NCBI GenBank assembly: GCA_964506845.1 | Contig: CAZDNS010000006.1 | Coordinates: 1 to 59,575, forward strand | Source: an uncultured Planctomycetia bacterium | GTDB lineage: Bacteria > Omnitrophota > Gorgyraeia > VGKN01 | Direction: 5' to 3' | Length of the DNA: 59,575 bases | Shown here: piece by piece, positions 1 through 46,723 of the stretch | How positions within the stretch are numbered: position 1 is the stretch's first letter | How the letters are laid out: each line of letters begins with the position of its first letter | Translations under genes and position numbers: made by a program | Notes under the pieces: generated by a model | The model's input: the letters and a program-made list of their open reading frames with translations, nothing else | Database searches by the model: none | Told to the model about the DNA's origin: nothing

Positions 1-1330
1 AAGGGAACCTGTATAATTAGTTTTATCCTTTGAACGATTTAAAAGTTCTTTCATGGCAAATAAACCGTAGCCAAAGAAAAAATGAGTTTTACTGTCATCA
101 TCAGAATAATATTTGTCTCCTGTTTTTTTCATAGCAGCTCTGACAGCTTTTTTTAAGCTCTCAGCTTCTTTTGGATTTAATTCCTTTAGTTTTTGTTCAT
201 ATTGTATAAAGTTAATCCTTTCCTTTTTTCTGTTATACCAAGAACCTGTTTCTATTTCTAATTCATCAACGGTGATATATATATTTTCTTTCCCAACGTA
301 TTCTTCAATTTCCTCTAAGTAAATCAGGGTATTTTTGTCAAAGGCGCTCAGAATTACCTTTGTTTTTATTCCGCCCTTTAGTGTTTCTTTGATAATCCGC
401 AGGGCTTCTGCATATTGGCGTTGCTCAATATTAGCGTCAACAGAGGAAATAAAACTCTTAAACAAATGCTCTTCAAATCTTTCCCATATCCTATCAAGCC
501 CGGGATAAACCTCACGCTTCAAGAAAGCCTGCATCTCATTCCCATCGGCCTTAAGCGTTTCATCCTGCATCAACCTCTCAACCTTTTCAACAAGCACGGT
601 GAGCTCGTCAATAATTTCAGTGCCTGCTTTTTGTTCTTGGGCATAGGCAATAAACCTTTTTAAGCCTTCAGGCACTTTATCAAATTCCTTTTTATCCAAG
701 GCATCGCTAATTTCTTTTATTAAATCCGGCATTGGCAGTCTTATCTCGCTTAGGGTATTATTTATCCTTATTACAAGATTCTTAATGCCACCTGCTACAT
801 CTTCGCCATCTTTAAGGCTGCCAAGATACTCTAACAGGCCTGTTATTTCCTTATCCAACTTTGCCCTTGCCCGTACAATAGAGACGATAGTAGGTATGGC
901 TCCGCCTAAACCTATGGTTAATACTTCGCCAACGAGCCCGGAAAATTTTGAGGGTTTTCCTGCAGGCCCATTTACACTAAAGAACCTGTCGCCTGCCTTC
1001 ATATTATTCATTATAACTGTAGAGATGCCGGCATCCTGAACGGCAAATCTTACAGTTCCCGGGATATCGCCATCGCCAAGATATGTAAGGGGTATTTTTT
1101 CGCCTGTCTCGTCTGACATTACTGTAAAGAACTGGCCTGGTTTTATCCTTCTGACAAGATACGGTGCATAGACAACAAATTCCACAATTCTTTGCCTTCC
1201 GTCTATCAAATATTTTACTAAAGGCATACTAGATAACAAATCCCTATATGCTATTTCTTTTATATCAAGTATCTCATACATCTCATATGGCTTTTTCTTA
1301 AAGAACAACTCTTCGGGATCCTCATCCTTT
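1..1330 (-). other. PyrK/NfnA-like FAD/NAD-binding module (domain, truncated by window edge)
   Basis: Translation gives 'RIKPGQFFTVMSDETGEKIPLTYLGDGD', 'GDRFFSVNGPAGKP' and 'VLTIGLGGAIPT', typical of the ferredoxin-reductase-type barrel plus Rossmann half of PyrK/NfnA/SudB proteins. There is a helical insertion before the last strands. Confidence 0.6.
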
Positions 1331-4300
1331 GACCTATTTTCTCGCGCTGGTTTATTGACGTCATTTTCAATAAAATAGAGCGCTGCATCTTTAGCCTGTG
1401 CAGCTGCTAATATAGCAGTGCCCTCTGCATCTTTTGGGTCCGTGGGACGCCTAGCTGCAACATCTCCTGATGCACATACAGACGCAAGCCCATCAGAACC
1501 ATCCAGTCCTTTAACCTGCATATTCACGTCTACATCAATGTATCTTCCATTGTTTAAAGGTATTGACGGACCATATGTCTCAGTTGCAGGAAATGTGCCC
1601 AAACATTCTACGACCTGATCCACATCTACAACATACCTCTTTTTTTCTTTTACAATTTCCTCGCCTTTTGGACCTTTAATAATTTCATACCTTATACATC
1701 TAATCCCTGTAATATTGCCCTCTTTGTCACCGATATATTCAATCGCCTGGTGCAACTCATAATCCTTCATGTTTATTACGCCGATACCTTCCTCTTTGGT
1801 ATGGCCTAATTCCTCTGCACGCGTTTTCAAACTCAGATATTCCTGGGAACGGCGGTATAAAAATAAGATATTCGGATCTACGTTTGTACCCAAGCGCCTG
1901 TTCAATACATTTATCCATCTGAGCGCAGTGCGCGCGCTATCCATTGCCACATTTCCAACGCCTAAAATTGCTATAGTTGTTTCTACTTTGATTTTATCAA
2001 GTTCTGAAGATAAGGCTTCTATCGCGTAATCAGAAAGAACTACATCATAAATAAATCCATTATTAGAAACAGGCCTTTTTTTAACAGCTTCTTCTAGCCT
2101 TTTTATAACCTCTTCTTCAAACCCGTATTGTCTTAAGCCGGATATTTCTCTAAGAAATTGCTCCCTTTCTCTCATCCCGCTGTCAATCATTCTCCTGATT
2201 TCTTCTAACTGGATAGATTTACTAAAAGCATCAAGCATCCTCTTTGCTAACGGAGCGGGCGTCTTATAGTTACGTCTCATTGCCTTCATAAGAAACGTCC
2301 ATGACAGGAAATGATACGCTGAGAATATGCCGTTTAGGTGCCTGCCGGGTATAGGGCTATACTCATTGGAACTTTCATAAAGCCTCTCTACGGCTTTTCT
2401 ATATTGTTCGTCCTCAGACAGTTTTAATAACGCCTCTTTTTCTTCCCTTGCCATTTTGCCTTTACATATCAGACGTTTTTTATCAGCATCATAAATAATC
2501 TTATACTTAAGGCTTTCGGGAAACTCTATTCCTGCGGGCAGGTTTTCAAGCCTTTCAAAAGCCTCCTTATATTCCATTACCTTTGACTTACCTGCTCCTG
2601 ATGAGATAAACACCACATCAAATATCCGCCTTAATTGGTTCATGGTAAAGGCGTTATCCTCGCCTATGGGAGTATCACGTACAAATTTTACACCCATATC
2701 TTCTTCCAAATATCTGATATGTTCTTCGACTACCCCTTCTTGCAACCTGAAGGTAGGTATGCCATATCGCAAAACACCACCTTCGCCTTTCAAAGGCAGG
2801 TGTTCAAAAACAACCACCTTATAACCGGCTCTAGCAAGGTTATATGCCTCTTGTAATCCTGCAGGGCCTGAACCAATAACCGCCGCATATTTACCGTTAT
2901 GTTTGGGTTTATCCTCTGGCCTTGGTTTAGGCAAACTTCCGTATAACTTGAAATAAGTCCTGAAGATAAGATACTCAAGTTTTCCTATATCTATGGGAAC
3001 AGGTCTTTCTTCTAATTTGCCAAATGTGCAGGCTGCCTGGCACAGATATTCCTGGGGACAGATAAGGCCAAGATATGCGCCGCCAAAACTCGCATCCATA
3101 AGCATACGCATAGCCTCTTCTATCTTTCCCTGCGCCATAAGGTCAAAGAGGATATTGATTGGCAGATGAAGCGGACAGCGGCTCTCTTTGGTCTTTACTC
3201 TTTCCCATATTTCGTTTGACTCATTCAAGAGTTTCTTTCGCTCTTGTTCAAGGCCTGCTTTATCCATAGCAAGCCATCTGTCAATTAATGCTATATTGGG
3301 TTCCCGCCTTAGACTCTCGTCACCTGCAATATTGTGTTTTGCTGAATTGCTTCTTAGTTTTCCGGATATATCCTCCTGCGTTTCTTTTGTTAAAAGACCT
3401 TTAAGGAATGAACCTATTGCCTGACCCTCTTTAAGTTCTGTCTCAACCAGATTACTCTGTATCTCTTCTTTAGAAAATTTACCCTTTCCATATTTTTCAT
3501 CAAGCTTCTGGCTTAACCATGCAATTGCTTCCTCTTTATCCTTTGCCAGGAAATTAAACTCAATCTCATCTGTTTTAAACTGGCACCTTTTCATCTGCGC
3601 AAGCGTTAGAATACCATTTATAAAACTCGCCTGATTTTTAAACCTTAGCGCAAGGCTGCCTTCCTGGCCAAATCCGCAAGCATTAGTTGCACACTTGTTG
3701 CAGAGAGTATAGTCCATTGCCTCAAATCCTGCTAAGGCCGCTCCGGGCTCGCCAAGGCTCTGACTGGTCATAGTTATATAAAAATCATAAATTCTGGTAT
3801 CTGCAGGCCTTTCGCCAAGCGACGAGCGAAAATCATGCCTATGTGCTTGTATCCACGCGCTAACGACAGCATGCTCATGGGCTATTTGCGCTACATTCTT
3901 TAGCACATTTTGGCGCTCTGTTTCCGGTTTTGTTTTACTGCCATAGTAGTAAAACCACGCCACAATCAAATTTTCTTTGAGGGTGTTAAGCAGGTTATAC
4001 CATGTTCCCGTTACATCTCCTGTAAATTGAAGATAGCTGAGGAGTTCCGGATAACCGCTCATAATACTATTAAATGCCTCATCCAATTCCTCCTTTGGAA
4101 TTGGAACATCTTCAGAATTCTTTAATCTCTCGGCAAAACCTGTAAATTCCCATGATTTAGAAAACTCACCTATCTGTTTTTCAACCTCGCTAATCCAGAA
4201 ACCCGGCCCTTTTTCGCTCGATGCAAGCGTTATAAAATAACTCATTGCTGCCTCTTTAAGGCCCTGGCTTGCCTCCTTAAAAGGCGTTGGCTCTCCAAAA

Positions 4301-5301
4301 TCCTGGCTGTAAAGCAGACTCTCTGCCTTGAATTTAAGCATATCCTTGTAGGTTTCATTTTCTTCCATACGCTCGGCAATATCAGATAGCATCTCAATAT
4401 CAGAGACCTTAAAGTTCTCTTTTGGACATATGCCGGCTTTATCCGGCGTAAGTATAACAACTTTCCATCTATCATAAAATGCCCTTCTTGCCATAGGAGT
4501 CAGCACAATACCGAGTTTTCTTACGCCTTTCTCATTTATAAAACACAGGCTTTCGTAAATGTTTAGTTCGCTGAATTTCGGATTTTTAAGGCTAAATTGG
4601 AATGCGGCTCTTGATACTCTCTGGGCTATGTTTAGCAGCTCCTTGGCCTGTTTCCCATCAAGTTTCCTGCCGGCAGGAATCCTCGCTATCTCATCCTTAA
4701 GTTCAACCATAGACGCAAGATGTCTCATAAGAGGCACCTTAACTCCGTTAATAGTAACATCCGTTTCAAAAACATTAGCCATGTGATTAACCAGCTCAAC
4801 TGCTCGGCTAAAGAGGTTTTTATGCCAAACTTCAAATCTTTTTAGATTTTCTATAAGGCGTATGAAAAGCTCGGGTGATAGGAGTCTGATATGGCTAAGC
4901 GATCCTATGACACCCTTTCTAAGAGATGCATCCCTTTGCATAGATTCATCTAACGTAGCTACGGATTCTTTCGATAAAGGTTTGCCCTGTAATCCCAGCG
5001 TTGATACAGCTTCTGCTGGAAGGAGGGTAGTTAACTCAACCGTGGCTGGCGCTGCATCATCGCCAACTACTTGTCCGCCAGTATTGACAAAACTAGTATT
5101 TGCAGCTACTTGAACTTGATGTCTCGCTCTCGTGCGCCTCTCCCCTGAACCATTATTTCCATCTTTATCTAAAATTAACGGTGGGACGAGCTTTGATGGG
5201 TCCTCGGCAAATGAGACTTCAGGACTAAAAGGCATGAGGCTTGATAGGAAAAAAGTCTCAATTAAGATTAAAGCAATTACCTTCTTTGTGTTTTTAAGCA
5301 C
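1..5301 (-). CDS. Leader-bearing multi-enzyme megaprotein, 3' end beyond window (>=1767 codons): signal/anchor leader + ~700 aa unassigned + GltD/NfnB-like Fe-S flavoprotein + PyrK/NfnA-like module
   Basis: Absent from the ORF track because it has no in-window stop. My reverse-complement translation from GTG 5301-5299 (GGAG 6 nt upstream) stays in one frame at every point checked (4500, 3000, 2898, 1500, 1440, 1149, 1). No competing minus-strand ORFs in that frame are listed. N-terminus VLKNTKKVIALILIETFFLSSLMPFSPEVSFAEDPSKLVPPLIL parallels the leader of the next gene. Confidence 0.8.
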   Translation of the reverse strand, partial: MLKNTKKVIALILIETFFLSSLMPFSPEVSFAEDPSKLVPPLILDKDGNNGSGERRTRARHQVQVAANTSFVNTGGQVVGDDAAPATVELTTLLPAEAVSTLGLQGKPLSKESVATLDESMQRDASLRKGVIGSLSHIRLLSPELFIRLIENLKRFEVWHKNLFSRAVELVNHMANVFETDVTINGVKVPLMRHLASMVELKDEIARIPAGRKLDGKQAKELLNIAQRVSRAAFQFSLKNPKFSELNIYESLCFINEKGVRKLGIVLTPMARRAFYDRWKVVILTPDKAGICPKENFKVSDIEMLSDIAERMEENETYKDMLKFKAESLLYSQDFGEPTPFKEASQGLKEAAMSYFITLASSEKGPGFWISEVEKQIGEFSKSWEFTGFAERLKNSEDVPIPKEELDEAFNSIMSGYPELLSYLQFTGDVTGTWYNLLNTLKENLIVAWFYYYGSKTKPETERQNVLKNVAQIAHEHAVVSAWIQAHRHDFRSSLGERPADTRIYDFYITMTSQSLGEPGAALAGFEAMDYTLCNKCATNACGFGQEGSLALRFKNQASFINGILTLAQMKRCQFKTDEIEFNFLAKDKEEAIAWLSQKLDEKYGKGKFSKEEIQSNLVETELKEGQAIGSFLKGLLTKETQEDISGKLRSNSAKHNIAGDESLRREPNIALIDRWLAMDKAGLEQERKKLLNESNEIWERVKTKESRCPLHLPINILFDLMAQGKIEEAMRMLMDASFGGAYLGLICPQEYLCQAACTFGKLEERPVPIDIGKLEYLIFRTYFKLYGSLPKPRPEDKPKHNGKYAAVIGSGPAGLQEAYNLARAGYKVVVFEHLPLKGEGGVLRYGIPTFRLQEGVVEEHIRYLEEDMGVKFVRDTPIGEDNAFTMNQLRRIFDVVFISSGAGKSKVMEYKEAFERLENLPAGIEFPESLKYKIIYDADKKRLICKGKMAREEKEALLKLSEDEQYRKAVERLYESSNEYSPIPGRHLNGIFSAYHFLSWTFLMKAMRRNYKTPAPLAKRMLDAFSKSIQLEEIRRMIDSGMREREQFLREISGLRQYGFEEEVIKRLEEAVKKRPVSNNGFIYDVVLSDYAIEALSSELDKIKVETTIAILGVGNVAMDSARTALRWINVLNRRLGTNVDPNILFLYRRSQEYLSLKTRAEELGHTKEEGIGVINMKDYELHQAIEYIGDKEGNITGIRCIRYEIIKGPKGEEIVKEKKRYVVDVDQVVECLGTFPATETYGPSIPLNNGRYIDVDVNMQVKGLDGSDGLASVCASGDVAARRPTDPKDAEGTAILAAAQAKDAALYFIENDVNKPARENRSKDEDPEELFFKKKPYEMYEILDIKEIAYRDLLSSMPLVKYLIDGRQRIVEFVVYAPYLVRRIKPGQFFTVMSDETGEKIPLTYLGDGDIPGTVRFAVQDAGISTVIMNNMKAGDRFFSVNGPAGKPSKFSGLVGEVLTIGLGGAIPTIVSIVRARAKLDKEITGLLEYLGSLKDGEDVAGGIKNLVIRINNTLSEIRLPMPDLIKEISDALDKKEFDKVPEGLKRFIAYAQEQKAGTEIIDELTVLVEKVERLMQDETLKADGNEMQAFLKREVYPGLDRIWERFEEHLFKSFISSVDANIEQRQYAEALRIIKETLKGGIKTKVILSAFDKNTLIYLEEIEEYVGKENIYITVDELEIETGSWYNRKKERINFIQYEQKLKELNPKEAESLKKAVRAAMKKTGDKYYSDDDSKTHFFFGYGLFAMKELLNRSKDKTNYTGSL
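1370..3200 (-). other. Glutamate-synthase small-subunit / NfnB-like FAD-NAD(P) oxidoreductase domain with N-terminal Cys-rich (Fe-S type) region
   Basis: 'ICPQEYLCQAACTFGKLEERPVPIDIGKLEY', 'KYAAVIGSGPAGLQEAYNLARAGYKVVVFEHLPLKGEGGVLRYGIP' and 'CASGDVAARRPTDPKDAEGTAILAAAQAKDAA', in the order seen in GltD/NfnB/SudA family proteins. Confidence 0.75.
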
Positions 5302-5492: not shown

Positions 5493-5494
5493 TG

Positions 5495-12322: not shown

Positions 12323-12494
12323 TGGGATCTCTCCTTCGTTTAGTACTGTGACTTGAAAAAAATACTGGAGCCCCACGTGCATGCACGTGGTCCCCTAAAA
12401 CTTTTACGCCACTCGTGGGGGCGACGTCCCGAACCACCATTCACCCACGGGCGTAGCCCGTGGTCCTCTGGCAACGGGATAAAAATGTCTGAGT
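12323..12494 (-). promoter_or_regulatory. GC-rich structured 5' leader of the 2295-aa gene
   Basis: Lies between a consensus promoter and the TTG start. It is visibly GC-rich against AT-rich flanks. It contains hairpins ccacgggc/gcccgtgg (12445-12463) and the palindrome ccacgtgcatgcacgtgg (12373-12390). Confidence 0.55.
12356..12395 (-). terminator. Terminator/attenuator-like hairpin inside the 5' leader
   Basis: Transcript reads GGGGACCACGUGCAUGCACGUGGGGCUCC. That is a 7-bp GC-rich stem plus 4 outer pairs, followed by AGUAUUUUUUU. It ends ~35 nt upstream of the TTG start. Confidence 0.5.
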
Positions 12495-12539: not shown

Positions 12540-12597
12540 TCATTACGATATATCGCATTAACGCTTACCATTTCACCATTAAATCACGAGGAAATAT

Positions 12598-15377: not shown

Positions 15378-15381
15378 AAAC

Positions 15382-15456
15382 GGGTCAACCTGTGCCTCTT
15401 TGGGTGCTTGTCTAAAAAGAGGGCTTTGCGCCTTTCTTAAAGGGTCAACCTGTGCC
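15382..15456 (-). repeat. 15-nt direct repeat flanking the read-through spacer
   Basis: gggtcaacctgtgcc occurs at 15382-15396 and 15442-15456, exactly 60 nt apart. It encodes AQVDP twice in the read-through frame. Confidence 0.8.
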
Positions 15457-15458
15457 TA
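15456..15458 (-). other. Single in-frame TAG separating the 466-aa and 911-aa ORFs
   Basis: 15378-15455 is 78 nt (26 codons) with no further stop. It translates as AQVDPLRKAQSPLFRQAPKEAQVDPF, directly in frame with MDEVEARV... Confidence 0.9.
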
Positions 15459-17799: not shown

Positions 17800-17810
17800 A
17801 ATTCTATCTC

Positions 17811-38625: not shown

Positions 38626-41600
38626 TTATATCGCCAGCTTCATATTCATTTTCTTCATAGCGGTTTTGGTTATGGCTACAGGTTTTTTCAAAATTCGCAT
38701 CATTTGTTCTTCGCTAAACAATGGAATCTTTTTCCCATCATAAAGCTCAACCATATTCAGCAAATCCACCATCAGATGGTCCTGACCCAACTGCTCATCA
38801 TCTATCCTGCAGAAGGATATTATTTTTTTCTTGGCATATTCCATAAGATAATCATAGATTCTTATGTAGTTACCTATGGAGCTTATGCTGAAACCTATCT
38901 GGTCTTTCCCTTCGCCAAGTTCAAACCCCGCCTGTTCTAAAAACTCAATGGCAGATTTCAGTATCTTTGGATTGTGCGCCATATTTAACTGAATTGCCAC
39001 TTTATCTCTTCCATGTTCGTTGATTGACTTTTTCGTTGCCCTTAGAAACATTATGAACACTTCGTTATATCCGGGCGACATATTCTTAATAAGCCCTCTA
39101 AAACCTAATGGCGAATTTGTGGTTGACCTTTCATATCTATCGCCAAATTTAAGACCTTTAAGCAATACTTGACCACCTACAGTGCTACCTTTGAAAAAAT
39201 CTGGCTCCTGCTGCGAGGTCTCAAAAACCACTAATTCCCCCTTTTCTGTTGCTTCTCTTACTGCCGCATCAATGTGTTCTTTGACCACTTTATTAATAAA
39301 ATCTTGAATGGAGCTCGCCTCATATCTCCCTAATAACTCTTCCACAGCTCTAACGGTATCTCTCTCTACGGCTTCGTCAATTACTATCCCCTTTTCTTTC
39401 TGAAAAGCCCTCAAGTCATTATAGGCCTCTTCGAATGTCTCTTTTGCAAGTCCTGATAATTGTCCAGTTTTGTAGAGATAAATAGCAAAAGCAAAAGGAT
39501 GTAAACCTAATTCGACAAATATATCATCCATGCTTACTACTTTAACATTTACCTTCTCAGGCTCTGCAGTATAATCTATATTTTCAGGAGTAAATATAGT
39601 GTTGTCTACAATCTTCTCGGTATAGAGTTTTATGCTCTTTTCTAAATACACAAAACCTCTCTGAAAATCAACCACATAGTCTCTATTATCTTCTAAAGCC
39701 CTGAAAGGATCCTGAGCAGTATCAACAAGAATAGCGGGTTTTCGCCAGTTTACTCTTAACCACTCCATGACAGGAGAATCCTCTCTAACACCACTTGTTA
39801 TAATCCCGCTTGCCTTTGAAAGCTGTATAGCAAGAATGCTTTCTTTTTTAGCATCTGTCTCTGTAAAATCCACATCTGGACCCAAGATAACGATATCCCC
39901 CTCAACAATCTTTGGCACTTCAACTTTTTTACCATCCGGCAATTTTTCTAAATATGTTAAATCTCTATTGTTTTTTATAAAAACTACTCTGCGTAATGCA
40001 GCGCCCTTTTGCTCCTCTCTAAGTTTTTTGCCTGTTACTATCTTAGTTAGTGGTCCGACATCCTTTGAATCTATATAATTTGTTTCTAAGTGGCTATCTG
40101 CTGTGAGGCTGACAGTCTGACCAAATGCAGGGATACTAGTTCCAACAGAATCCAATACTGCGACTATCTGCATAGCGGCTCTTCTGGCTTCAGGGGTGGG
40201 TTTTCTTAGCAAGTTTATTATGGCATTACCGCATAAACCCAGTGTAAAATCCACCAATGCCTCTCCTGTCTTTGGGTCTGTAAATTCCTCTTCAATAACT
40301 CTCTTTGCCTCAAGCGCGCTATGTAATATAGCGTCTATAACCTCTGGGTCTCCTTCGTCAAAGACTGATATCTCGCTGACCTTATCTGTTCCTGGAATAT
40401 ATATTTTTGTCTTTTTGAATCCCTTCTCATCCCTGTCTGCCTTTTTAACGGACTGGGTAAGGTCATTTGTCCCATATGAAAAGAAGGTATGGACATTGTA
40501 TTTCCTGGCAAAATTAGCCAGAATTCTTGCGTAATCAGCTGCCAGAGGAACGTTATTTCCAAGCTCAAGCATCATACCTATATATGGAGGAAGCTCTATC
40601 TCACCTGCTTCATAAAGTTTTGCTATCCTATCTAAACCCTTCTCTAAATCCTCGGGCGACCTTAAGAACACAAAGAAGAATCCAAACGTTCCCACATTTG
40701 TCCCCTTTGTGGCTTTTATGGCATCGTTCATAGCCTTAAGTTGAATATCCACGGCATAGATATTCTCATCCCTGACCTCAAGGCCTGTGCCTCTGTCACC
40801 CACCATAGAAGCCCTCTCCTCATTGTAAAATAACTCGGCACCAATCAAATCTTTTATAATCTCGTTCTTTTTAAAATCCCTTGCCCTGACTAAAACCAAT
40901 TGTTCTGGTGTAACTGTTCTTGCCAAGCCAATAAAATGTGCCTTTAGTTTATCTCTCAGATATGCCTCTGCTGTGGGATAGCCTGCTATCTTTTCTCTGA
41001 TTTTAGCCTGTATATCCTTTCGCGGTCTTAACTTCTCTACATCCGCCATCATTCTCTTTTGCCTTGCTATTTCTGCTGGTCCTTGGGGATTTTCTAATAG
41101 GTAGAGTTGCTTTTTATTGGCTCTTAAAATAGCCAATTCCCAGAGTTGTTCTCTTATCCTGTTATTCTTATGTAATTTTATACCCCGTAAAAGCCCCATA
41201 GTGTACTCAACTGGTCCAACAACCTCTCCTCCTTCGGAAACGGCAAAGTTCCTTATTGTCTCTTCATTATCCAACAGGTCTTCCACATTGGCTATTATCC
41301 ATTCTCGCCTTTCCTCTCTCGGCACCTCAAGCCATTCGCCGTTAATCTCTATCTTAGAAGGCCCGAGCTCAGTCTTATCCAAGATTATATTAAGTGCACC
41401 TTCAAGTTCCTCTTTTGCTGTAATCAACTCCGCTTCTAAACCTTCTAACTCTTTTAAACGTGCCAAAATCTTCTCCTTATTATTGAGAATCTGTAGATTG
41501 TCATAGGCCTCGCCTGCCCTGAAATCCACTCCGATAGCTAAAAGTGCCTCTTCTATTCTATCGAGACTGAATCCATAATAACCGCTTAGTTTTTTCTTTA

Positions 41601-44600
41601 ACTCTTTAATAAATTTGGGCGCCCAGAGACTAAGCTTTGAGACTCGTTCTGCATCGAGAACAGATGCCAGTATAAGACCTACCTTTGTCTTAAAATGCTG
41701 CCATCTGGTTGGCGAGTAAAATATAATCTCTTCAATAATAGGATATTTACCCAAGTATATTCTTCCCTGATTTGCATCTACAGTGAGTTCTATCTCTGAT
41801 TTTTTAACCTTGTTTAAAATATCCTTATCCTCAGAAAGCAATGCAGGATTTATTACTAACCCCACAACTGCAGGAATTCCCCTTTCTCCGCAAAAGATTG
41901 TGGCATGGGAGGTTTCAGAGCCAGTTAGGGTAACCACGTAACTTGCCACCATCATCGCTCTGTCATATTCAGGTTTTGGGTCAGCTGCCAGCATACCCAC
42001 AGTCTCTCCCGCATTCTTTAATAAATCTACCACCTCTATAAACCTGTCTATCTGTCGCGATAAAATTTCAGACACAAAAACATTAACTTCGCTTGTAAAA
42101 AGGTGATTTGAAATATCTATATTCGTCCTTATGTCAATAAAAATAGTAAGTAAAAGGGATTGCCTGTCTTGGGATACCTGTCTCTTGGCCTCAGGGCTTA
42201 GCTCACCTTCAACTGGTAAACTTAGCTCGGTTAATAAGTTTTTAAGGCCTCGTTTAAATCCTTCTTTATTTTGGACTTTATCTGGTAAGGTTAATTCTTC
42301 TATAGCCCTATCTATCTGTGATGCAGAAACCCCTACTAAATCCTCTCTTCCTATAAATGACAAAATCTTCTCAAAATCCTCTTTATTTATATCTCCTAAG
42401 TCTGCAAAATCCTTTTCTAACTCAATCTCTTTAATCCTCTTTGCCCTTTTATAACGCCAGATTATGTCTTTTAGTTCCTCATCTGTAAACCATTCTTTAT
42501 CCAGAGCCTTCTTAACATTTTCGAAATCCTTAAAAGGCTCAGAATATCTTCCAGGTAAGAGTGCTTTTAAAATCGCAATTCCCTCTTGAAGCTTTCTTCC
42601 AACGCTTTGAGTTAATGCTTCGGCTACATCCCTTTTGCTTTTTTCATCAATGTAAATTGCCCTACCTGCTCCTGCATTTGAGGTAGCCACACCTTCTCCG
42701 AATTTCTTGGCATGCTCTATCTGCTCTGGGTCCGGAATTGTTCTTTTAAGCCTTAGATTTTTCGGGTCATCCTTATCCAAATCCGGAATAGCAACTGCTC
42801 GCATCTGGACAGTATTAAAACGCAGTCTTCCTTTATACTCGTAATATAAACATTCGGTATCAACGGTCTTTCCAAGCGCCCCTTGTATCTCTACAATCCA
42901 TCTGGCTATTTCAATGGCTTTCTGTTCTATATCCGATTCATATAAACTCTCGGTTATGCAAAAGCGTTCCCTCATTTCTTGAGGAACTTCTATTCCCTCA
43001 GGATGTTCTTTTGTCATCATACGCTCTTTTTTGCCACGGTGTTTAAAATTAACTACCGCCTTTCCTGTTTTAAGGTCGATATAAACCTCAAGCCTGTCAG
43101 GTTCAACCTTTCCTTCAACCAAGAATGGACCAAGTCCGTATGTAGCATCAAAGGTTATAGTCAAGGTGTTATTGCTAAAACCTGTCATCTTACTTGCCTT
43201 TTTCACAGTAAAACCTGTGATACAGAATTTACTCTGTCTCATAGCCTGTACGCCAAGACCCATCCCAACATTAAGCGGATCTACAATTCTGCTTCTGATA
43301 TCAGTCAATGATTTTCTTAGACGTGAAACTTCCACAGGTGCTTCCTGTTCAATTAAAGAGAGTATCTTTAGCAATCTATAAGTGGAGACAAACTGCTCCT
43401 TTCTTTCGCCCTGGTCCTTAATTGCCTTATTTAACCTTAAAATGACATCTCTGGTAGACGCAGTTTTTCCTTCCTTAATCTCAATCCAAGTTATGTTAGA
43501 ATTTGCCTCGTCTGACTCAAAAGCATTTATAACCAAGTCTCTATCTAATGTTTCAACAAACCTTCTCTTCAAATCTATTTCGCTAATCCCATCCGTCTCT
43601 TTCTGCTGAGTCTTCCAAATCTCAAATGTAGTATTATGCTTAGCTTCTACCTTATTAACCAAATCAGCTATATTTTCTCTTACCCATCTATCGTAAGCAG
43701 AGTTATATCTCTTTTCTAATATAGTTATAACCGTTTGTAAATCCCGCTTGTCTATACTCTGGGTAAGCCACTCATCAAACACCAAAAGGTCTCTATATAC
43801 AATTGGCATTGACTTCCATAATGAAGCGAATCCCTTTAAAACATTAGCAAAAAGCGCTTCAAATGTGACATTTAAATATGTATCCTGCAAGCCTGCAGCT
43901 GCGCCAATTGGACGGTCTTCATAATAAGAGGAACTTCTTACAGCCATAAGTAAGCCAATGAGATTAGTTACTTCTTCTTCATTTAAAATCTTGCCTTCTT
44001 TAGCTCCTTCGAAGAAATCCTTGACTTTTATTTCTTCCTGAGAATTCTTAAGTTCCATAAGTTTTTCTATCTTATCTTTTGTTATAATTCCTTCCTGAAC
44101 AGCAAGCAGTAAAAACTCGGCAAATAATTCATCTGCAAGCGATTCTGGAACTGTGGCACTTTGATGCCAACCGCTTATCAATCCTTCGGCAATGCTTGGC
44201 TCATAGGCATCCTGCGCATCAAGGTCTATAATAACCTCTCTGATTTTTTTCAACATACTTTCGTTCTCTACTGTATTAAGCCGCAAAAAGAAATTATGCC
44301 CTGCGCCAGTAATGCCGAATACGCTCGGAACAGGCGGTTTATCCAAACCCATCCTTAAAAGACGCTTGGCAACAATCTCAGTAAGGAAATACCGCACCAT
44401 CTTAAAAAGGTTATGCACCTTACCGCCAACTGTATCAAGCGTGCTTAACTCCTCAGGCACATCCGCTCTTTGAACAAGATAACCTGCCTTTGTCTTCTCA
44501 ATAGCCTCGGCTAATGCTTTGCAGTCAACTATGCGGTGGGCTAAAGGTGTATTTTTTAGGTCGGGTTGGGATAATATATATCTCTCTAAAGCTTGCTGCT

Positions 44601-45027
44601 TATCATCTGCAAGCTCTCCTACTGCCTTCATAATTACATATATCCGCCTGAAATCCCTGTTGATAGAACCAATAAGAACGGCTAATACATTATTTAAGTC
44701 CGTTTCCTTACCAGTTTTTAAAAGCTCTATAGCATCTTCAAGTTGTGCCTTAGCATGAGAGAAATCTCCTTTGTCTAAATACGCATCCATCTGCTGCCAG
44801 GTGATTGAACCTCCGATAGCGGGACCTGGCGCAGTGCTTAAAGTTTTTCTTGCGCCATTTCTTCTGCCCGCGCCCTGCTCACCTAACATAATAGGAGGTG
44901 CGAGCTTGTCTTTCTTTAAGGCAGTATTAGCATAGGCAGTATCAAAATAAGTGGGCGAGATTACTAAATTAAAAGAAACTAGAATTGTGATTACGGCTGA
45001 AAAAAATCTTTTATATCCTTTAAACAT
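38626..45027 (-). CDS. Leader-bearing PEP synthase / pyruvate-phosphate-dikinase-family megaprotein (2133 aa) with large insertions and a second, degenerate swivel + TIM-barrel unit; no CTD
   Basis: ORF track, with GAAGGGA 6 nt upstream of the ATG. Leader is MFKGYKRFFSAVITILVSFNLVISPTYFDTAYANTALKKDKLAPPIMLGEQGAGRRNG. Confidence 0.9.
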   Translation of the reverse strand: MFKGYKRFFSAVITILVSFNLVISPTYFDTAYANTALKKDKLAPPIMLGEQGAGRRNGARKTLSTAPGPAIGGSITWQQMDAYLDKGDFSHAKAQLEDAIELLKTGKETDLNNVLAVLIGSINRDFRRIYVIMKAVGELADDKQQALERYILSQPDLKNTPLAHRIVDCKALAEAIEKTKAGYLVQRADVPEELSTLDTVGGKVHNLFKMVRYFLTEIVAKRLLRMGLDKPPVPSVFGITGAGHNFFLRLNTVENESMLKKIREVIIDLDAQDAYEPSIAEGLISGWHQSATVPESLADELFAEFLLLAVQEGIITKDKIEKLMELKNSQEEIKVKDFFEGAKEGKILNEEEVTNLIGLLMAVRSSSYYEDRPIGAAAGLQDTYLNVTFEALFANVLKGFASLWKSMPIVYRDLLVFDEWLTQSIDKRDLQTVITILEKRYNSAYDRWVRENIADLVNKVEAKHNTTFEIWKTQQKETDGISEIDLKRRFVETLDRDLVINAFESDEANSNITWIEIKEGKTASTRDVILRLNKAIKDQGERKEQFVSTYRLLKILSLIEQEAPVEVSRLRKSLTDIRSRIVDPLNVGMGLGVQAMRQSKFCITGFTVKKASKMTGFSNNTLTITFDATYGLGPFLVEGKVEPDRLEVYIDLKTGKAVVNFKHRGKKERMMTKEHPEGIEVPQEMRERFCITESLYESDIEQKAIEIARWIVEIQGALGKTVDTECLYYEYKGRLRFNTVQMRAVAIPDLDKDDPKNLRLKRTIPDPEQIEHAKKFGEGVATSNAGAGRAIYIDEKSKRDVAEALTQSVGRKLQEGIAILKALLPGRYSEPFKDFENVKKALDKEWFTDEELKDIIWRYKRAKRIKEIELEKDFADLGDINKEDFEKILSFIGREDLVGVSASQIDRAIEELTLPDKVQNKEGFKRGLKNLLTELSLPVEGELSPEAKRQVSQDRQSLLLTIFIDIRTNIDISNHLFTSEVNVFVSEILSRQIDRFIEVVDLLKNAGETVGMLAADPKPEYDRAMMVASYVVTLTGSETSHATIFCGERGIPAVVGLVINPALLSEDKDILNKVKKSEIELTVDANQGRIYLGKYPIIEEIIFYSPTRWQHFKTKVGLILASVLDAERVSKLSLWAPKFIKELKKKLSGYYGFSLDRIEEALLAIGVDFRAGEAYDNLQILNNKEKILARLKELEGLEAELITAKEELEGALNIILDKTELGPSKIEINGEWLEVPREERREWIIANVEDLLDNEETIRNFAVSEGGEVVGPVEYTMGLLRGIKLHKNNRIREQLWELAILRANKKQLYLLENPQGPAEIARQKRMMADVEKLRPRKDIQAKIREKIAGYPTAEAYLRDKLKAHFIGLARTVTPEQLVLVRARDFKKNEIIKDLIGAELFYNEERASMVGDRGTGLEVRDENIYAVDIQLKAMNDAIKATKGTNVGTFGFFFVFLRSPEDLEKGLDRIAKLYEAGEIELPPYIGMMLELGNNVPLAADYARILANFARKYNVHTFFSYGTNDLTQSVKKADRDEKGFKKTKIYIPGTDKVSEISVFDEGDPEVIDAILHSALEAKRVIEEEFTDPKTGEALVDFTLGLCGNAIINLLRKPTPEARRAAMQIVAVLDSVGTSIPAFGQTVSLTADSHLETNYIDSKDVGPLTKIVTGKKLREEQKGAALRRVVFIKNNRDLTYLEKLPDGKKVEVPKIVEGDIVILGPDVDFTETDAKKESILAIQLSKASGIITSGVREDSPVMEWLRVNWRKPAILVDTAQDPFRALEDNRDYVVDFQRGFVYLEKSIKLYTEKIVDNTIFTPENIDYTAEPEKVNVKVVSMDDIFVELGLHPFAFAIYLYKTGQLSGLAKETFEEAYNDLRAFQKEKGIVIDEAVERDTVRAVEELLGRYEASSIQDFINKVVKEHIDAAVREATEKGELVVFETSQQEPDFFKGSTVGGQVLLKGLKFGDRYERSTTNSPLGFRGLIKNMSPGYNEVFIMFLRATKKSINEHGRDKVAIQLNMAHNPKILKSAIEFLEQAGFELGEGKDQIGFSISSIGNYIRIYDYLMEYAKKKIISFCRIDDEQLGQDHLMVDLLNMVELYDGKKIPLFSEEQMMRILKKPVAITKTAMKKMNMKLAI
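38743..39960 (-). other. Second, degenerate PEP-utilising unit (His-less swivel-like segment + partial TIM barrel)
   Basis: 'KASGIITSGVREDSPVMEWL' has no His where TSH is expected. 'FVELGLHPFAF', 'NSPLGFRGLI', 'IGFSISSIGN' and 'SFCRIDDEQLGQ' stand against the canonical F-S-I-G-[ST]-N-D-L-T-Q. Confidence 0.5.
40108..41700 (-). other. PEP-utilising enzyme TIM-barrel domain (with insertions)
   Basis: 'YGFSLDRIEEALLAIGV', 'MVGDRGTGLE', 'YIGMMLELG', 'TFFSYGTNDLTQS', 'TLGLCGNAI'. Confidence 0.7.
41848..42015 (-). other. Phosphohistidine swivel domain
   Basis: 'VVTLTGSETSHATIFCGERGIPAVVG'. Confidence 0.8.
42643..44505 (-). other. PPDK_N / ATP-grasp nucleotide-binding region (with insertions)
   Basis: 'LDTVGGKVHNLFKM', 'LMAVRSSSYYEDRPIGAAAGLQDTYLNV'. 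Confidence 0.7.
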
Positions 45028-46095: not shown

Positions 46096-46125
46096 ATAAA
46101 AATAGGGCCAGACCCTTTTTATTTT

Positions 46126-46723
46126 CTATTGTAATCTCTCTAATTCCCAATTCCTGAATTCCATATCCAACAACCCCGTGCGGTTAAATAGAAGCGTCCC
46201 CTTTTTCCTTGTTTTAAGTGCTTCTATTTCCTCTGCGCTTGCCATTCTAAGTTTGCCAGAACTAACTAAATTGGCTAAGCCCGACTGCTTTAAGAAACCC
46301 TCTGTTTTTCCTTGCTCTATTCCTCTTTCATCAATAGAAAATCTGATACCCTTGGTTTCTGATAACCAGTGAAAAACCTAACTCATCTAACTCTCTATTT
46401 TGCTCTTTTAAAAGAATAATACCCTGTCTAATTTGCTCTGCTATTTGCTGCAAATCTGTTGTTGTCCTAACCACTTTTTCCGCCAGTTCTATCATTACCG
46501 CAGCACCCAGCGCACGTCTGGCTGCATTTAATTTTCCATCAGCACCATTTCTACGGCTACTATGCGCAGAGGTCATAGGAGGCGCAAGGCGAGATTTTTT
46601 CTTCTGGTTTAAGGAATAGGCAAAGACGGGGTCTATAAGGGATGTGGCGATAAAAACCTCGGCAACAATTAGCGCTATTAGCTTTTTAAAATAATTTCCA
46701 ATGTTATTACTTTCGGGCAACAT
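46126..46723 (-). pseudogene. Cargo-less family member: leader fused almost directly to the CTD, frameshifted and 3'-truncated next to the HEPN gene
   Basis: Frame A (track ORF 46331..46723) gives a leader, MLPESNNIGNYFKKLIALIVAEVFIATSLIDPVFAYSLNQKKKSRLAPPMTSAHSSRRNG, then 'GIILLKEQNRELDELGFSL', which aligns with CTD 'NLIVLQPHMLAQALGLQL'. Frame B (46377-46129) gives 'HWLSETKGIRFSIDERGIEQGKTEGFLKQSGLANLVSSGKLRMASAEEIEALKTRKKGTLLFNRTGLLDMEF', which aligns with CTD 'SLLASDEGITVVVDKEGIQEGEIDSYLELAGLKDLVSSGKVQLKTKRGIEEL..YLDGW'. The last ~75 CTD residues are missing. Confidence 0.65.

What the first reader, a model, noticed from the sequence alone, without database searches (positions are those of the whole stretch)
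1..46723. Array of leader-passenger-CTD megaproteins that hard-wire amino-acid oxidation and gluconeogenesis into single polypeptides
Seven co-oriented genes or remnants share one layout. (i) Each has a near-identical N-terminal module: a basic n-region, an ~18-residue hydrophobic stretch, a small-x-small site, a K-L-[AV]-P-[PQ] motif, and often RRNG. (ii) Each carries a passenger made of covalently joined enzymes that are normally separate cytosolic proteins. (iii) In three genes plus one remnant there is a shared ~185-aa C-terminal domain ending Y[KR]A[QM]LGAK-stop. The passengers are: PPS/PPDK-like (2133 aa); GDH-PEPCK-HAD-enolase-iPGM-TIM-PGI-HAD-ADH-PGM (6681 aa); two FBP aldolase/phosphatase-like modules (466+911 aa); LeuDH-like-PRODH-P5CDH (2295 aa); NfnB/GltD-like-NfnA/PyrK-like (partial). 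Together they cover proline/glutamate/branched-chain amino-acid oxidation and most steps from pyruvate/oxaloacetate to hexose phosphates. Catalytic motifs are largely intact, so these are not decayed fusions. I do not know of a described system with this architecture. Possible readings, all inference: a membrane-tethered covalent metabolon co-assembled through the CTD; an exported or surface-displayed enzyme array; or polyprotein precursors processed at the linkers.
Basis: partly seen in the sequence, partly recalled or inferred. Interest (0 to 1): 0.95.

Follow-up and report, generated by a model that had tools for sequence, protein, structure and literature searches.

The report
Omnitrophota fused-enzyme genes with shared ends
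An uncultured Omnitrophota bacterium carries a row of very large genes, each fusing several central-metabolism enzymes between a shared secretion-type leader and a shared, previously undescribed tail domain; this is a compact new variant of the multi-enzyme giant proteins already reported for this phylum.

Summary
On the minus strand of 1-46723 lie five large genes and one decayed remnant, not seven units: the 466- and 911-aa ORFs are one gene split by a single TAG. They share a ~55-aa leader. Three genes plus the remnant share a ~195-aa C-terminal domain (CTD).

Pfam, NCBIfam and PDB searches confirm most enzyme calls: GDH, PEPCK, HAD, enolase, iPGM, TIM, MDR-ADH, PGM, FBP aldolase/phosphatase, PutA, PEPS/PPDK-like and GltD+PyrK-like. 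PGI is only weakly supported. The second HAD was not found. One FBPA/P copy lacks its catalytic motifs. No PGK or GAPDH domain was detected, so the pathway is incomplete.

The organism is Candidatus Omnitrophota. Two preprints already describe membrane- or signal-peptide-bearing multi-enzyme giant proteins in this phylum with TIM, PGI, FBPase, PGM, FBA and PPDK domains and adjacent pilZ genes. The concept is therefore not new.

The new parts are the compact single-leader format, the K-L-A/V-P-P leader, the winged-helix + Rossmann-like CTD with no Pfam or PDB relative, and the amino-acid dehydrogenase and PutA modules. Leader and CTD recur together in other Omnitrophota contigs at the same chromosomal position. 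Localisation (exported versus cytoplasmic face) is unresolved. Verdict: new variant of a known kind.

The parts
1..5301 (-). Gene Z (partial; runs off the left end; likely GTG start at 5301): leader, ~650 aa of unassigned sequence, GltD/NfnB-like, then PyrK/NfnA-like
   Evidence: NF009414, E = 4e-41; RBS GGAG + GTG
5495..12382 (-). Gene A (2295-aa ORF; likely true start is TTG at 12322): leader, spacer module, ELFV (Leu/Trp-DH-like) dehydrogenase, PutA_N + PRODH + P5CDH, CTD
   Evidence: Aldedh 562 bits, Pro_dh 258 bits; EMGGKN and GQKC intact
5495..6100 (-). CTD of A, ending YKAQLGAK
12642..16856 (-). Gene C/B: one gene of ~1404 codons interrupted by a single TAG. Layout: leader, FBPase_3-like copy without catalytic motifs (C), FBP aldolase/phosphatase with intact KADMGG, FSGN and YIGKDDP motifs plus two large insertions (B), winged helix, CTD
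15456..15458 (-). In-frame TAG that splits C from B. The homolog P0005 has GAG (Glu) at this codon
13299..13613 (-). Winged-helix module upstream of the CTD in B (RG.GTPKR...SETT.RRE...)
12642..13244 (-). CTD of B
17398..17817 (-). PilZ-2, heading the second sub-array and lying downstream of E; 80% identical to PilZ-1
   Evidence: literature
18519..38564 (-). Gene E (6681-aa ORF; the leader begins near aa 63-77, so the true start may be the ATG at 38378). Layout: leader, GDH, PEPCK(GTP), HAD, enolase, permuted iPGM, spacer, TIM (partial), ~800 aa unassigned, weak PGI, ~780 aa unassigned, MDR-ADH, PGM/PMM, CTD
30993..32567 (-). Circularly permuted iPGM inside E: the C-terminal half comes before the N-terminal half
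   Evidence: same order in P0008
18519..19121 (-). CTD of E, ending YRAMLGAK
38626..45027 (-). Gene F (2133 aa): leader plus a PEP synthase/PPDK-like enzyme with large insertions; no CTD
   Evidence: TSHA and GTNDLTQ intact
46216..46723 (-). Remnant R: leader ORF (46331-46723) plus a CTD fragment (46216-46365). The passenger is lost and the locus is truncated next to the MNT/HepT insertion
47000..47401 (-). PilZ-1, at the head of the first sub-array
47588..49186 (-). H_532: a conserved membrane-anchored protein of unknown function that directly precedes leader-gene arrays in four related contigs

Best explanation
SHOWN. This is a chromosomal array in an uncultured Candidatus Omnitrophota bacterium. 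Its genes belong to one rare, lineage-restricted, modular protein family. Each member has three parts:
- a ~55-aa N-terminal leader;
- a variable passenger made of fused central-metabolism enzymes (sugar-phosphate and gluconeogenic enzymes plus amino-acid dehydrogenases and PutA);
- in most members, a C-terminal unit of a winged-helix domain plus a ~190-aa Rossmann-like alpha/beta domain ending ...Y(K/R)A(Q/M)LGAK.
It is the small, single-leader end of the already described spectrum of Omnitrophota very long multi-enzyme proteins. Like those, it sits beside pilZ genes. Passengers are exchanged between orthologs as whole modules.

INFERRED. The leader is a Sec-type signal. It has a basic n-region, a ~20-residue hydrophobic core, and a Pro-containing c-region with small residues at -3/-1. 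It targets the nascent chain to the cytoplasmic membrane, where it is either cleaved or kept as an N-in anchor. The passenger therefore ends up outside the cytoplasm, on or near the envelope.

The conserved K-L-(A/V)-P-P motif lies 4-9 residues after the predicted cleavage site. Together with the shared winged-helix + CTD unit, it probably acts as a common handle for retention, co-assembly or a second sorting step. Different enzyme cassettes would then be brought to the same place as a multi-enzyme assembly. That assembly would interconvert amino acids, C3/C4 acids and triose or hexose phosphates, probably at the interface with a host or prey cell. It may be controlled by c-di-GMP through the PilZ proteins.
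For: Taxon and context. The MiaB-like neighbour is 71% identical to an Omnitrophota MAG with the same gene order. All CTD homologs come from Candidatus Omnitrophota.

Family. An exhaustive HMM search of 1.84 billion cluster representatives finds the CTD in only 8 clusters, always at the C-terminus. An additional complete member is in L087.

Co-occurrence of leader and CTD.
- L082 has three consecutive leader genes; one carries wH+CTD.
- L085 has a leader(SKLAPP)...CTD gene at the syntenic position.
- L087 has a complete 2829-aa leader-PGM-PGI-CTD gene directly after the H_532 homolog.

Passenger coherence. Passengers include FBPase_3, FBPase_glpX, FBA_II, HAD, PGM, iPGM, PGI and AlaDH.

Module shuffling. 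P0005 equals C/B plus an inserted AlaDH.

Leader features. Each protein has a single N-terminal hydrophobic segment. The charge difference favours N-in/C-out in 9 of 10 leaders. Small residues sit at -3/-1 in all 11 leaders; this is my own reading of the sequences.

CTD fold. The models have pLDDT 71.5 and 76.7. They show a winged helix (PadR/RTP/ROQ-type matches) followed by a Rossmann-like sandwich. There is no significant PDB match and no Pfam hit.

Enzyme integrity: enolase SHRSGE; Aldedh EMGGKN and GQKC; PEPCK GPSASGKS, YGGN and HPNARF; GDH GGGK; TIM His and Glu; FBPA/P YIGKDDP; PEPS TSHA and GTNDLTQ.

Literature. The same enzyme classes, signal peptides, predicted extracellular location and downstream pilZ genes are reported for Omnitrophota giant proteins.
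Against: Cofactors. Most passengers need cytoplasmic cofactors: GTP, ATP, NAD(P), FAD and possibly Fe-S. To my knowledge (not checked in the literature here) there is no precedent for Sec export of such enzymes. There is no conserved twin-arginine motif; only A has RR.

Topology. Several leaders have K/R clusters just after the hydrophobic core (R: +8 within 30 aa), which disfavours Sec translocation. Neither SignalP nor DeepTMHMM could be run, so the topology rests on simple rules.

CTD. Its role as an assembly or sorting handle is pure inference. F and one L082 gene lack it, so it is not obligatory.

Pathway. No PGK or GAPDH was detected, so the set is not a self-contained pathway. One FBPA/P copy lacks its catalytic motifs. 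The TIM N-terminal third does not align. Z keeps only 4 Cys in its Fer4_20-like region.

Expression. There are no expression or proteomic data for this family.
Confidence: 0.45

Rival explanations
1. Membrane-tethered cytoplasmic metabolon. The hydrophobic leader is an uncleaved N-terminal anchor and the enzyme chain stays on the cytoplasmic face. There it has access to nucleotides, FAD, Fe-S assembly and membrane quinones. The CTD oligomerises or co-assembles the different chains, so intermediates are channelled from amino acids and C3/C4 acids to hexose phosphates, for example to feed envelope or polysaccharide synthesis under c-di-GMP control.
For: The cofactor needs of PutA, PEPCK, PEPS/PPDK, GDH/AlaDH/LeuDH and GltD/PyrK-like modules, with catalytic motifs intact. 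From general knowledge, PutA is normally a peripheral membrane enzyme acting from the cytoplasmic side. Basic clusters (KK.K, RRNG) follow the hydrophobic core in several leaders. There is no Tat motif. The 2026 preprint reads 46% of Omnitrophota long proteins as TM-anchored with cytoplasmic domains, and West-Roberts et al. themselves doubt the extracellular call for the sugar-phosphate enzymes. PilZ neighbours are present.
Against: The positive-inside rule gives N-in/C-out for 9 of 10 leaders. All 11 leaders have a Pro-containing c-region with small residues at -3/-1, as expected for signal peptidase I substrates and not required for a simple anchor (and my own reading). An N-out orientation would need translocation of a basic N-tail.
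Confidence: 0.33
2. Prey-directed effector enzymes. After Sec export the proteins are passed on, with the CTD or the mature N-terminal motif as the second signal. They go to the cell surface or into the attached host or prey cell. There they use the victim's cofactors, PGK and GAPDH to turn its amino acids and organic acids into sugar phosphates or sugars that the sugar-fermenting Omnitrophota cell can take up.
For: The signal-peptide-like leaders. Published predatory or epibiotic lifestyles for Omnitrophota, and secretion-system loci next to giant genes. No PGK or GAPDH was detected, so the set depends on enzymes supplied elsewhere. HAD phosphatase modules could release free sugars.
Against: No secretion-system genes lie in this window; the flank is housekeeping. 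There is no similarity to any known effector signal. The CTD is alpha/beta, unlike T5SS or T9SS domains. Secreting anabolic enzymes would be unprecedented. The lifestyle of this particular lineage is unknown.
Confidence: 0.12
3. Polyprotein precursors. The long chains are cut at inter-domain linkers into ordinary single enzymes, and the fusion only serves co-expression or co-targeting.
For: West-Roberts et al. propose proteolytic processing for Omnitrophota giant proteins, based on C39 and S8 peptidase domains. Long unassigned spacers separate the enzymes here.
Against: No peptidase domain was found in any of the window's large proteins. No recurrent linker or cleavage motif exists among them. 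PutA and the GltD-PyrK fusions are known to work as fusions.
Confidence: 0.07
4. Decaying or artefactual genes. The array is a graveyard of fused pseudogenes or a mis-assembly, with no current function.
For: An in-frame TAG in C/B, a leader+CTD remnant (R), two toxin-antitoxin insertions, one FBPA/P copy without catalytic motifs, and a TIM lacking an alignable N-terminus. Contigs of relatives tend to break at the array.
Against: A 20-kb ORF and several 6-7-kb ORFs without stops cannot persist without selection. Catalytic motifs are intact in most domains. Orthologs in other MAGs keep the architecture: 67.5% identity over 976 aa, a conserved permuted iPGM, and a complete 2829-aa member. No long repeats could cause chimeras.
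Confidence: 0.03

Closest known systems
Omnitrophota 'Archaeovorin' giant proteins (West-Roberts et al. 2023, bioRxiv 10.1101/2023.11.21.568195)
   Same: Same phylum. Fused sugar-phosphate and gluconeogenic enzyme domains (TIM, PGI, FBPase, PGM/PMM, FBP aldolase, PPDK). N-terminal signal peptides and a predicted extracytoplasmic location that sits uneasily with the enzymology. Small pilZ genes next to the giant genes.
   Different: Archaeovorins are >=30,000 aa with many TM helices, HEAT repeats, glycosyltransferases, SecA_DEAD domains and C39/S8 peptidases, and are preceded by a T2SS/T4P-like locus. Here the proteins are 1.4-6.7 kaa with one N-terminal hydrophobic segment. None of those domains is present, and the flank is housekeeping. 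There are several genes in a row that share a leader and a CTD. There are also amino-acid dehydrogenase, PutA and PEPCK modules that the passages I read do not mention.
'Multi-enzyme metabolic clusters' class of Omnitrophota long proteins (2026 preprint 10.64898/2026.06.07.730766)
   Same: Many different enzyme Pfams tile one polypeptide. The sugar-metabolism module includes PGM/PMM and HAD. 94% of those proteins carry a signal peptide and/or TM helices, including a 9-13% 'SP-only' class.
   Different: That catalogue covers only proteins >=10 kaa. The sections I read describe no shared leader motif, no shared C-terminal domain and no tandem gene arrays. The window's proteins fall below its size cut-off.
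PutA (bifunctional PRODH-P5CDH) and GltD/PyrK (NfnAB-like) fusions
   Same: The core of A is a canonical PutA_N + Pro_dh + Aldedh. Z matches NCBIfam PRK12778-type bifunctional proteins.
   Different: Here they are embedded behind a signal-like leader with extra dehydrogenase and spacer modules and, for A, the CTD. The domain order in Z (GltD-like then PyrK-like) is the reverse of PRK12778.
Leader-passenger-CTD secretion substrates (T5SS autotransporters, T9SS cargo) and cellulosome dockerin logic
   Same: Formal layout of signal peptide + variable passenger + shared C-terminal module. Many different enzymes in one organism carry the same C-terminal tag.
   Different: The CTD is predicted as a winged helix plus a Rossmann-like alpha/beta sandwich. 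It is not a beta-barrel, beta-sandwich or dockerin. It has no sequence or significant structural similarity to those families. This is an analogy only.

Membership tests
Archaeovorin giant proteins (Omnitrophota) | Length >=30,000 aa | tested here: not met
   The largest ORF is 6681 aa
Archaeovorin giant proteins (Omnitrophota) | Numerous transmembrane helices along the chain | tested here: not met
   A Kyte-Doolittle scan finds only the N-terminal segment; other hydrophobic hits lie inside enzyme cores. DeepTMHMM was not available
Archaeovorin giant proteins (Omnitrophota) | SecA_DEAD, HEAT, glycosyltransferase or C39/S8 peptidase domains | tested here: not met
   No such Pfam hits in any window protein. 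One CTD-bearing relative, P0004, has HEAT repeats
Archaeovorin giant proteins (Omnitrophota) | Sugar-phosphate or gluconeogenic enzyme domains fused in one chain, Omnitrophota host, pilZ neighbour | tested here: met
Multi-enzyme metabolic class of Omnitrophota long proteins (2026 preprint) | Many distinct Pfams tiling the polypeptide with no dominant repeat | tested here: met
   E carries at least 12 different Pfam families
Multi-enzyme metabolic class of Omnitrophota long proteins (2026 preprint) | Length >=10 kaa (catalogue threshold) | tested here: not met
   threshold taken
Sec (signal peptidase I) signal peptide | Basic n-region, hydrophobic h-region, c-region with small residues at -3/-1 | tested here: inconclusive
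   Features are present in 11 of 11 leaders by manual inspection, and the charge rule gives N-in in 9 of 10. However, the h-region is long (20-29 uncharged residues), some leaders have basic clusters after it, and SignalP could not be run
Tat signal peptide | Conserved twin-arginine (S/T-R-R-x-F-L-K) in the n-region | tested here: not met
   Only A has RR (MRRFNK). The others have KK, KR or K only
Lipoprotein or type IV pilin-like leaders | Lipobox Cys, or G/A(-1) F(+1) E(+5) prepilin site | tested here: not met
   No Cys in the c-regions and no prepilin site register in the aligned leaders
T5SS / T9SS C-terminal domains | Beta-barrel translocator or beta-sandwich CTD | tested here: not met
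   AF2 models are alpha/beta Rossmann-like with a C-terminal helix. No Foldseek match has E < 1e-3 and there is no Pfam hit
PutA | PutA_N + Pro_dh + Aldedh in one chain with the catalytic Glu/Cys of the ALDH | tested here: met
   (58, 258 and 562 bits); EMGGKN and GQKC present. This applies to the core of A only
DeoR/SorC-type wHTH + sugar-phosphate-binding domain | Sequence or structural match of the C-terminal unit to DeoR_C / SorC / ISOCOT folds | tested here: inconclusive
   A winged helix is supported. The alpha/beta domain gives only weak eIF2B/MtnA-like Foldseek hits (E = 7e-3 to 5e-2, TM about 0.2). No Pfam hit even at E <= 10

The most novel reading that the evidence does not exclude
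The K-L-A-P-P leader and the winged-helix + Rossmann-like CTD together form a previously unknown two-signal sorting system. It takes a nucleotide-, flavin- and NAD(P)-dependent enzyme set for amino-acid oxidation and gluconeogenesis out of the cytoplasm of an ultra-small Omnitrophota cell. The destination would be an energised periplasm-like compartment, the cell surface, or the attached prey cell. Part of central metabolism would then run outside the cytoplasm.
Probability: 0.15. Interest if true: 0.9.

Novelty: new variant of a known kind. Interest (0 to 1): 0.6.

Why it matters
The puzzle of secretion-signal-bearing glycolytic and gluconeogenic enzymes in Omnitrophota giant proteins is already in the literature. 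It is hard to study there because those proteins are 30-150 kaa with dozens of TM helices.

This family offers the same puzzle in a tractable form. The proteins are 1.4-6.7 kaa with one leader. There is one conserved post-leader motif and one conserved, undescribed C-terminal unit. The enzyme domains have recognisable catalytic residues.

That makes several questions directly testable. Where do these enzymes end up? Are they active? Does a shared tail co-assemble them? Simple topology reporters, recombinant domains and CTD interaction assays would answer these.

The family also gives a sequence handle, in the form of leader and CTD HMMs, to find more members in the new complete Omnitrophota genomes. 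It adds a conserved circularly permuted iPGM as an evolutionary curiosity.

Tried and rejected
Searches that found nothing.
- Word-indexed searches of the 5.8-billion-protein database with the CTD (3- and 8-sequence profiles) returned nothing. With the leader they returned only the window's own remnant. I treat these as limits of the index, because the exhaustive HMM search did find relatives.
- A GTDB genome scan with CTD patterns found nothing.
- A metagenome scan with CTD patterns found nothing. The 8-sequence alignment was too divergent for pattern design.

CTD identity.
- There is no Pfam hit even at E <= 10 in any of 8 members.
- NCBIfam gave nothing.
- Foldseek against the PDB gave no match with E < 1e-3 for either model. 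I therefore rejected T5SS, T9SS, dockerin and HAD identities.

Leader identity. Tat, lipoprotein and type IV pilin leaders were considered and rejected from the aligned leaders.

Processing. No exact pentapeptide recurs among the proteins apart from one chance case.

Domains not found.
- No DxD(G/N)(T/V) motif and no similarity to HAD#1 in E 4100-4950.
- E 2950-4900 versus PDB sequences matched only the ADH edge.

Recoding of the in-frame TAG (pyrrolysine or read-through). Rejected as the default reading. TAG is a normal terminator for B, E, PilZ-2, PgpA and FtsK, and the homolog has GAG at that codon.

Other checks.
- Rfam gave no RNA family in the window.
- The passengers of P0007 and P0009 could not be identified. 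My first motif-based guesses (nucleotidyltransferase, UGPase) are withdrawn.
- H_532 has no PDB or NCBIfam relative.
- The internal spacer shared by A and E is only marginally similar to the C-terminal winged helix.

Full report
1. WHAT IS IN THE WINDOW

All large ORFs lie on the minus strand. They are Z (partial, 1-5304), A (5495-12382, 2295 aa), B (12642-15377, 911 aa), C (15456-16856, 466 aa), E (18519-38564, 6681 aa) and F (38626-45027, 2133 aa). A 130-aa leader-only ORF, R, lies at 46331-46723. The right flank from 47.5 to 59.5 kb is ordinary bacterial housekeeping: PgpA, PgsA, MiaB/RimO-like, RodZ, FtsK, UppP, PNPase and RibF.

An all-against-all comparison confirms two shared modules.
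- **Leader.** An N-terminal leader is present in Z, A, C, E, F and R. Identity is 23-58%. Best pairs are A-Z 53%, C-F 56% and E-R 58%, with E = 1e-11 to 1e-15.
- **CTD.** A ~195-aa C-terminal domain is present in A, B and E at 29-50% identity (E = 1e-18 to 1e-45). A 50-aa CTD fragment lies just downstream of R at 46216-46365.

The leader motif reads K/H/R-L-A/V-P-P/Q in all six. The CTD ends Y(K/R)A(Q/M)LGAK.

2. CORRECTIONS TO THE OBSERVATION

**C and B are one gene.** They share a frame and are separated by a single TAG at 15456-15458. Joined, they align as one 976-aa HSP at 67.5% identity to an Omnitrophota protein, P0005, which reads GAG (Glu) at that codon. TAG is a normal terminator elsewhere in the window. 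This is therefore a nonsense mutation, a population variant or a sequencing error, not recoding. The array holds five genes plus one remnant.

**Start codons.**
- The annotated ATG of A lies inside a palindromic hairpin. A TTG at 12322 behind the RBS GAAGGAGAG gives the typical n-region MRRFNK.
- Z probably starts at the GTG at 5301.
- The hydrophobic core of E's leader begins at aa 77. Its 5' extension overlaps a sequence that is 5'-UTR in gene C.

**Assembly.** No DNA repeat is longer than 123 nt (79% identity) inside the array, so repeat-driven chimeric assembly is unlikely.

3. DOMAIN MAP

Confirmed above the curated thresholds:

| Gene | Domains |
|---|---|
| A | ELFV dehydrogenase, PutA_N, Pro_dh, Aldedh (562 bits) |
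| C and B | FBPase_3 (class V FBP aldolase/phosphatase) |
| E | ELFV GDH, PEPCK_N + PEPCK_GTP, HAD, Enolase_N + Enolase_C, iPGM_N + Metalloenzyme, TIM, ADH_N + ADH_zinc_N, PGM_PMM_III |
| F | PPDK_N, PEP-utilizers, PEP-utilizers_C |
| Z | Fer4_20 + Pyr_redox_2 |

NCBIfam shows Z to be GltD-like followed by PyrK-like (E = 4e-41).

Weak or absent:
- PGI is supported by only a 19-bit hit (E = 5e-4) at about E 3800-4135.
- PGM domains I and IV are sub-threshold.
- A second HAD was not found.
- About 1.6 kaa of E, and several hundred residues at the start of A, Z and F, have no detectable relative in Pfam, NCBIfam or PDB sequences.
- No PGK or GAPDH domain was detected, so the set does not form a closed gluconeogenic route.

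Catalytic signatures:
- **Intact:** enolase (KVNQ, SHRSGE); ALDH (EMGGKN, GQKC); PEPCK (GPSASGKS, YGGN, HPNARF); GDH (GGGK); TIM (GHSESR, AYEPIWAIG, phosphate loops); the FBPA/P copy in B (KADMGG, FSGN, YIGKDDP, collinear with 1UMG but with two large insertions); the PEPS-like enzyme (TSHA, GTNDLTQ).
- **Not intact or uncertain:** the FBPase_3-like copy in C lacks all three signatures. The N-terminal third of TIM is not alignable. HAD#1 has DLTGT instead of DxDGT. Z keeps only four cysteines in its Fer4_20-like region.

The iPGM in E is circularly permuted, with the C-terminal half before the N-terminal half. P0008 shows the same order, so the permutation is conserved.

4. WHOSE GENOME, AND DOES THE ARCHITECTURE RECUR?

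The MiaB-like neighbour is 71% identical to a Candidatus Omnitrophota MAG. That MAG's contig has the same gene order and ends exactly where the array would start.

The word-indexed protein searches and pattern scans found nothing for the CTD. An exhaustive profile search of 1.84 billion cluster representatives did find it. It occurs in only eight clusters, two of them the window's own, and always at the extreme C-terminus. All are singletons from Candidatus Omnitrophota, named 'hypothetical protein', 'fructose 1,6-bisphosphatase' or 'HEAT repeat protein'.

Their contexts:
- **L082.** The tail of an H_532 homolog is followed by three co-oriented genes that all carry the leader. One has winged helix + CTD. 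One has FBPase_glpX + class II aldolase + HAD. One has PGM.
- **L085.** The same PNPase...PgpA-H_532 synteny as the window is followed by a leader(SKLAPP)...CTD gene at the contig end.
- **P0005.** FBPase_3 x2 + AlaDH + winged helix + CTD.
- **P0008.** Permuted iPGM + PGM + winged helix + CTD.

Using H_532 as an anchor pulled one more locus, L087 (86% identity). There a complete 2829-aa gene follows H_532 directly. It has a leader (ELVPPL), PGM_PMM_II, a bacterial PGI SIS domain and a CTD 57% identical to B's. In the window this position holds only the decayed remnant R.

Leader and CTD therefore recur together, at a conserved chromosomal position, with functionally coherent but shuffled passengers. 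The family is rare and restricted to one Omnitrophota clade.

5. THE SHARED ENDS

**Leader.** Each protein has just one strongly hydrophobic segment, the leader. This contrasts with published Omnitrophota giants, which have dozens of TM helices. The leaders have 2-6 basic residues, then 20-29 uncharged residues with a conserved internal polar residue (E, Q or N), then a Pro. By my own reading of the aligned sequences, small residues sit at -3/-1 in 11 of 11 leaders. The K-L-A/V-P-P motif follows 4-9 residues later.

The charge difference favours N-in/C-out in 9 of 10 leaders. These features fit a Sec/signal-peptidase-I signal. They do not fit Tat (only A has RR), lipoprotein or prepilin signals. 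Some leaders carry K/R clusters just after the core (R: +8 within 30 aa), which argues the other way. SignalP and DeepTMHMM were not available.

**C-terminal unit.** Upstream of the CTD, most members carry a conserved ~100-aa module, RG.GTPKR...TFT...SETT.RRE...Y.LD.R. AlphaFold models of the CTD alone (pLDDT 71.5) and of the last 340 aa of B with six sequences (pLDDT 76.7) show a winged helix followed by a Rossmann-like alpha/beta sandwich with a long C-terminal helix.

Foldseek supports the winged helix through PadR, RTP and ROQ matches. It gives no significant match for the alpha/beta domain; the best hit has E = 1.6e-3 with TM about 0.2. None of the eight CTDs hits any Pfam family even at E <= 10. 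The CTD is an undescribed domain. Its function is unknown. A role as a common association or sorting handle is inference from its position and its sharing by otherwise unrelated passengers.

6. NEIGHBOURHOOD

The array consists of two sub-arrays.
- PilZ-1 (47000-47401), a 62-aa ORF, R, then [MNT/HepT pair on the plus strand], F, E, then [MazE/ParE-like pair on the plus strand].
- PilZ-2 (17398-17817), a 23S-rRNA-IVP four-helix-bundle gene, C/B, A, Z.

The two PilZ proteins are 80% identical. By my own inspection of the alignment they keep the RxxxR and DxSxxG motifs. West-Roberts et al. report that Omnitrophota giant genes are usually followed by small pilZ homologs. This ties the array to the giant-gene phenomenon.

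7. COMPARISON WITH WHAT IS KNOWN

Two preprints do describe the general phenomenon.
- West-Roberts et al. 2023 describe 'Archaeovorins' with TIM, PGI, FBPase, PGM/PMM, FBP aldolase and PPDK domains. They report a predicted extracellular location that the authors themselves question, a proposed proteolytic processing, and pilZ neighbours.
- The 2026 complete-genome survey defines a 'multi-enzyme metabolic clusters' class and reports that 94% of long proteins carry signal peptides and/or TM helices.

Both treat only much larger proteins (>=10 or >=30 kaa). The parts I read do not mention a shared leader motif, a shared C-terminal domain, tandem arrays of such genes, or amino-acid dehydrogenase, PutA or PEPCK modules.

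Membership in the Archaeovorin family fails on size, TM count and hallmark domains (SecA_DEAD, HEAT, GT, C39/S8). The window's family works like, and is probably evolutionarily related to, the multi-enzyme class, but it is a distinct compact variant.

8. MECHANISM

**Shown:** the architecture, its recurrence, its modular evolution and the integrity of most catalytic sites.

**Inferred:** the leader targets the chain to the membrane by the Sec/SRP route. The sequence rules favour an exported passenger. The enzymology (GTP, ATP, NAD(P), FAD, possibly Fe-S) favours a cytoplasmic passenger. This is the same conflict already noted in the literature.

I place about 0.45 on the Sec-targeted, envelope-associated assembly reading. 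I place 0.33 on an N-terminally tethered cytoplasmic metabolon and 0.12 on prey-directed effectors. Polyprotein processing gets 0.07, since there is no protease and no linker motif. Decay or artefact gets 0.03.

9. VERDICT

This is a new variant of a known kind. Its interest is moderate to high because it turns an existing puzzle into an experimentally tractable one and defines two undescribed sequence modules.

Noticed in passing
window 30993-32567 (E aa ~2000-2524); also P0008 aa ~147-509: The cofactor-independent phosphoglycerate mutase is circularly permuted. The C-terminal metalloenzyme half (NFANADMLGHTG...ITADHGNAE) comes before the N-terminal half (ILTIVLDGWG...SENGH...HAFLDGRDT). The same order occurs in a homolog from another MAG.
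   Followed up: partly
window 15456-15458: A single in-frame TAG splits one leader-FBPA/P x2-wH-CTD gene into ORFs C and B. The ortholog has GAG at this codon. The downstream 911 codons are still open, so the change is recent, a variant or an error.
   Followed up: yes
window 17398-17817 and 47000-47401: Two PilZ-domain paralogs (80% identical; RKYRR and DMSSGG motifs intact) each sit at the head of a sub-array. pilZ genes next to Omnitrophota giant genes are reported in the literature.
   Followed up: partly
window 47588-49186; L002 9796-11406; L085 8394-10007; L082 1-657; L087 1329-2882: H_532 has an N-terminal TM segment and no Pfam, NCBIfam or PDB relative. It is 67-86% conserved and lies immediately upstream of the leader-gene array in every related contig recovered. 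It may be functionally linked.
   Followed up: partly
window 17896-18422 (+) and 45272-46095 (+): Two toxin-antitoxin pairs (MazE-like/ParE-like and MNT/HepT) are inserted on the opposite strand inside the array. The MNT/HepT pair abuts the truncated CTD fragment of remnant R.
   Followed up: partly
window 46733-46921; L082 4374-4864; L087 12579-12767: A small conserved ORF of ~60 aa ('...SIEEMLKIWNTSN...') recurs between or next to leader genes in three loci (65% identity to L087). It has no family assignment.
   Followed up: partly
window 12621-12647 and 18498-18524, plus hairpins at ~12560-12600 and ~18450-18490: Directly after the stop codons of B and E there is a near-identical 22-nt element (GGGRAAATGGCAAATGGCGTAT on the coding strand). 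A GC-rich hairpin follows (GTCCCACCT...AGGTGGG). More GC-rich palindromes fill the B-A intergenic region.
   Followed up: no
window 16898-16933 and 38371-38406: A 36-nt element with three [AG]TGACTT repeats lies in the 5'-UTR of gene C. It recurs (86% identity) inside the annotated N-terminal extension of E, which suggests E's real start is downstream. Similar AAGT[GC]A heptads occur after the stops of A and F. It may be a regulatory site.
   Followed up: partly
window 12322-12382: The annotated ATG start of A sits inside the palindrome CCACGTGCATGCACGTGG. A TTG at 12322 with the RBS GAAGGAGAG is the more plausible start. It gives MRRFNK, the only leader with a twin arginine.
   Followed up: partly
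window 16930-17322: A 23S rRNA-intervening-sequence protein (four-helix bundle, PF05635, 120 bits) is encoded between PilZ-2 and gene C.
   Followed up: no
window A aa 175-341 (~11360-11860) and E aa 2505-2681 (~30520-31050): A ~170-aa non-enzymatic spacer module is shared by A and E (31% identity, E = 1e-13). It is marginally similar to the C-terminal winged-helix module, so divergent winged helices may serve as inter-enzyme spacers.
   Followed up: partly
L002 (end), L085 (end), L083/L084/L086 (short contigs): Contigs of related MAGs repeatedly break at or inside these arrays. The family is therefore probably under-represented and fragmented in short-read assemblies.
   Followed up: no
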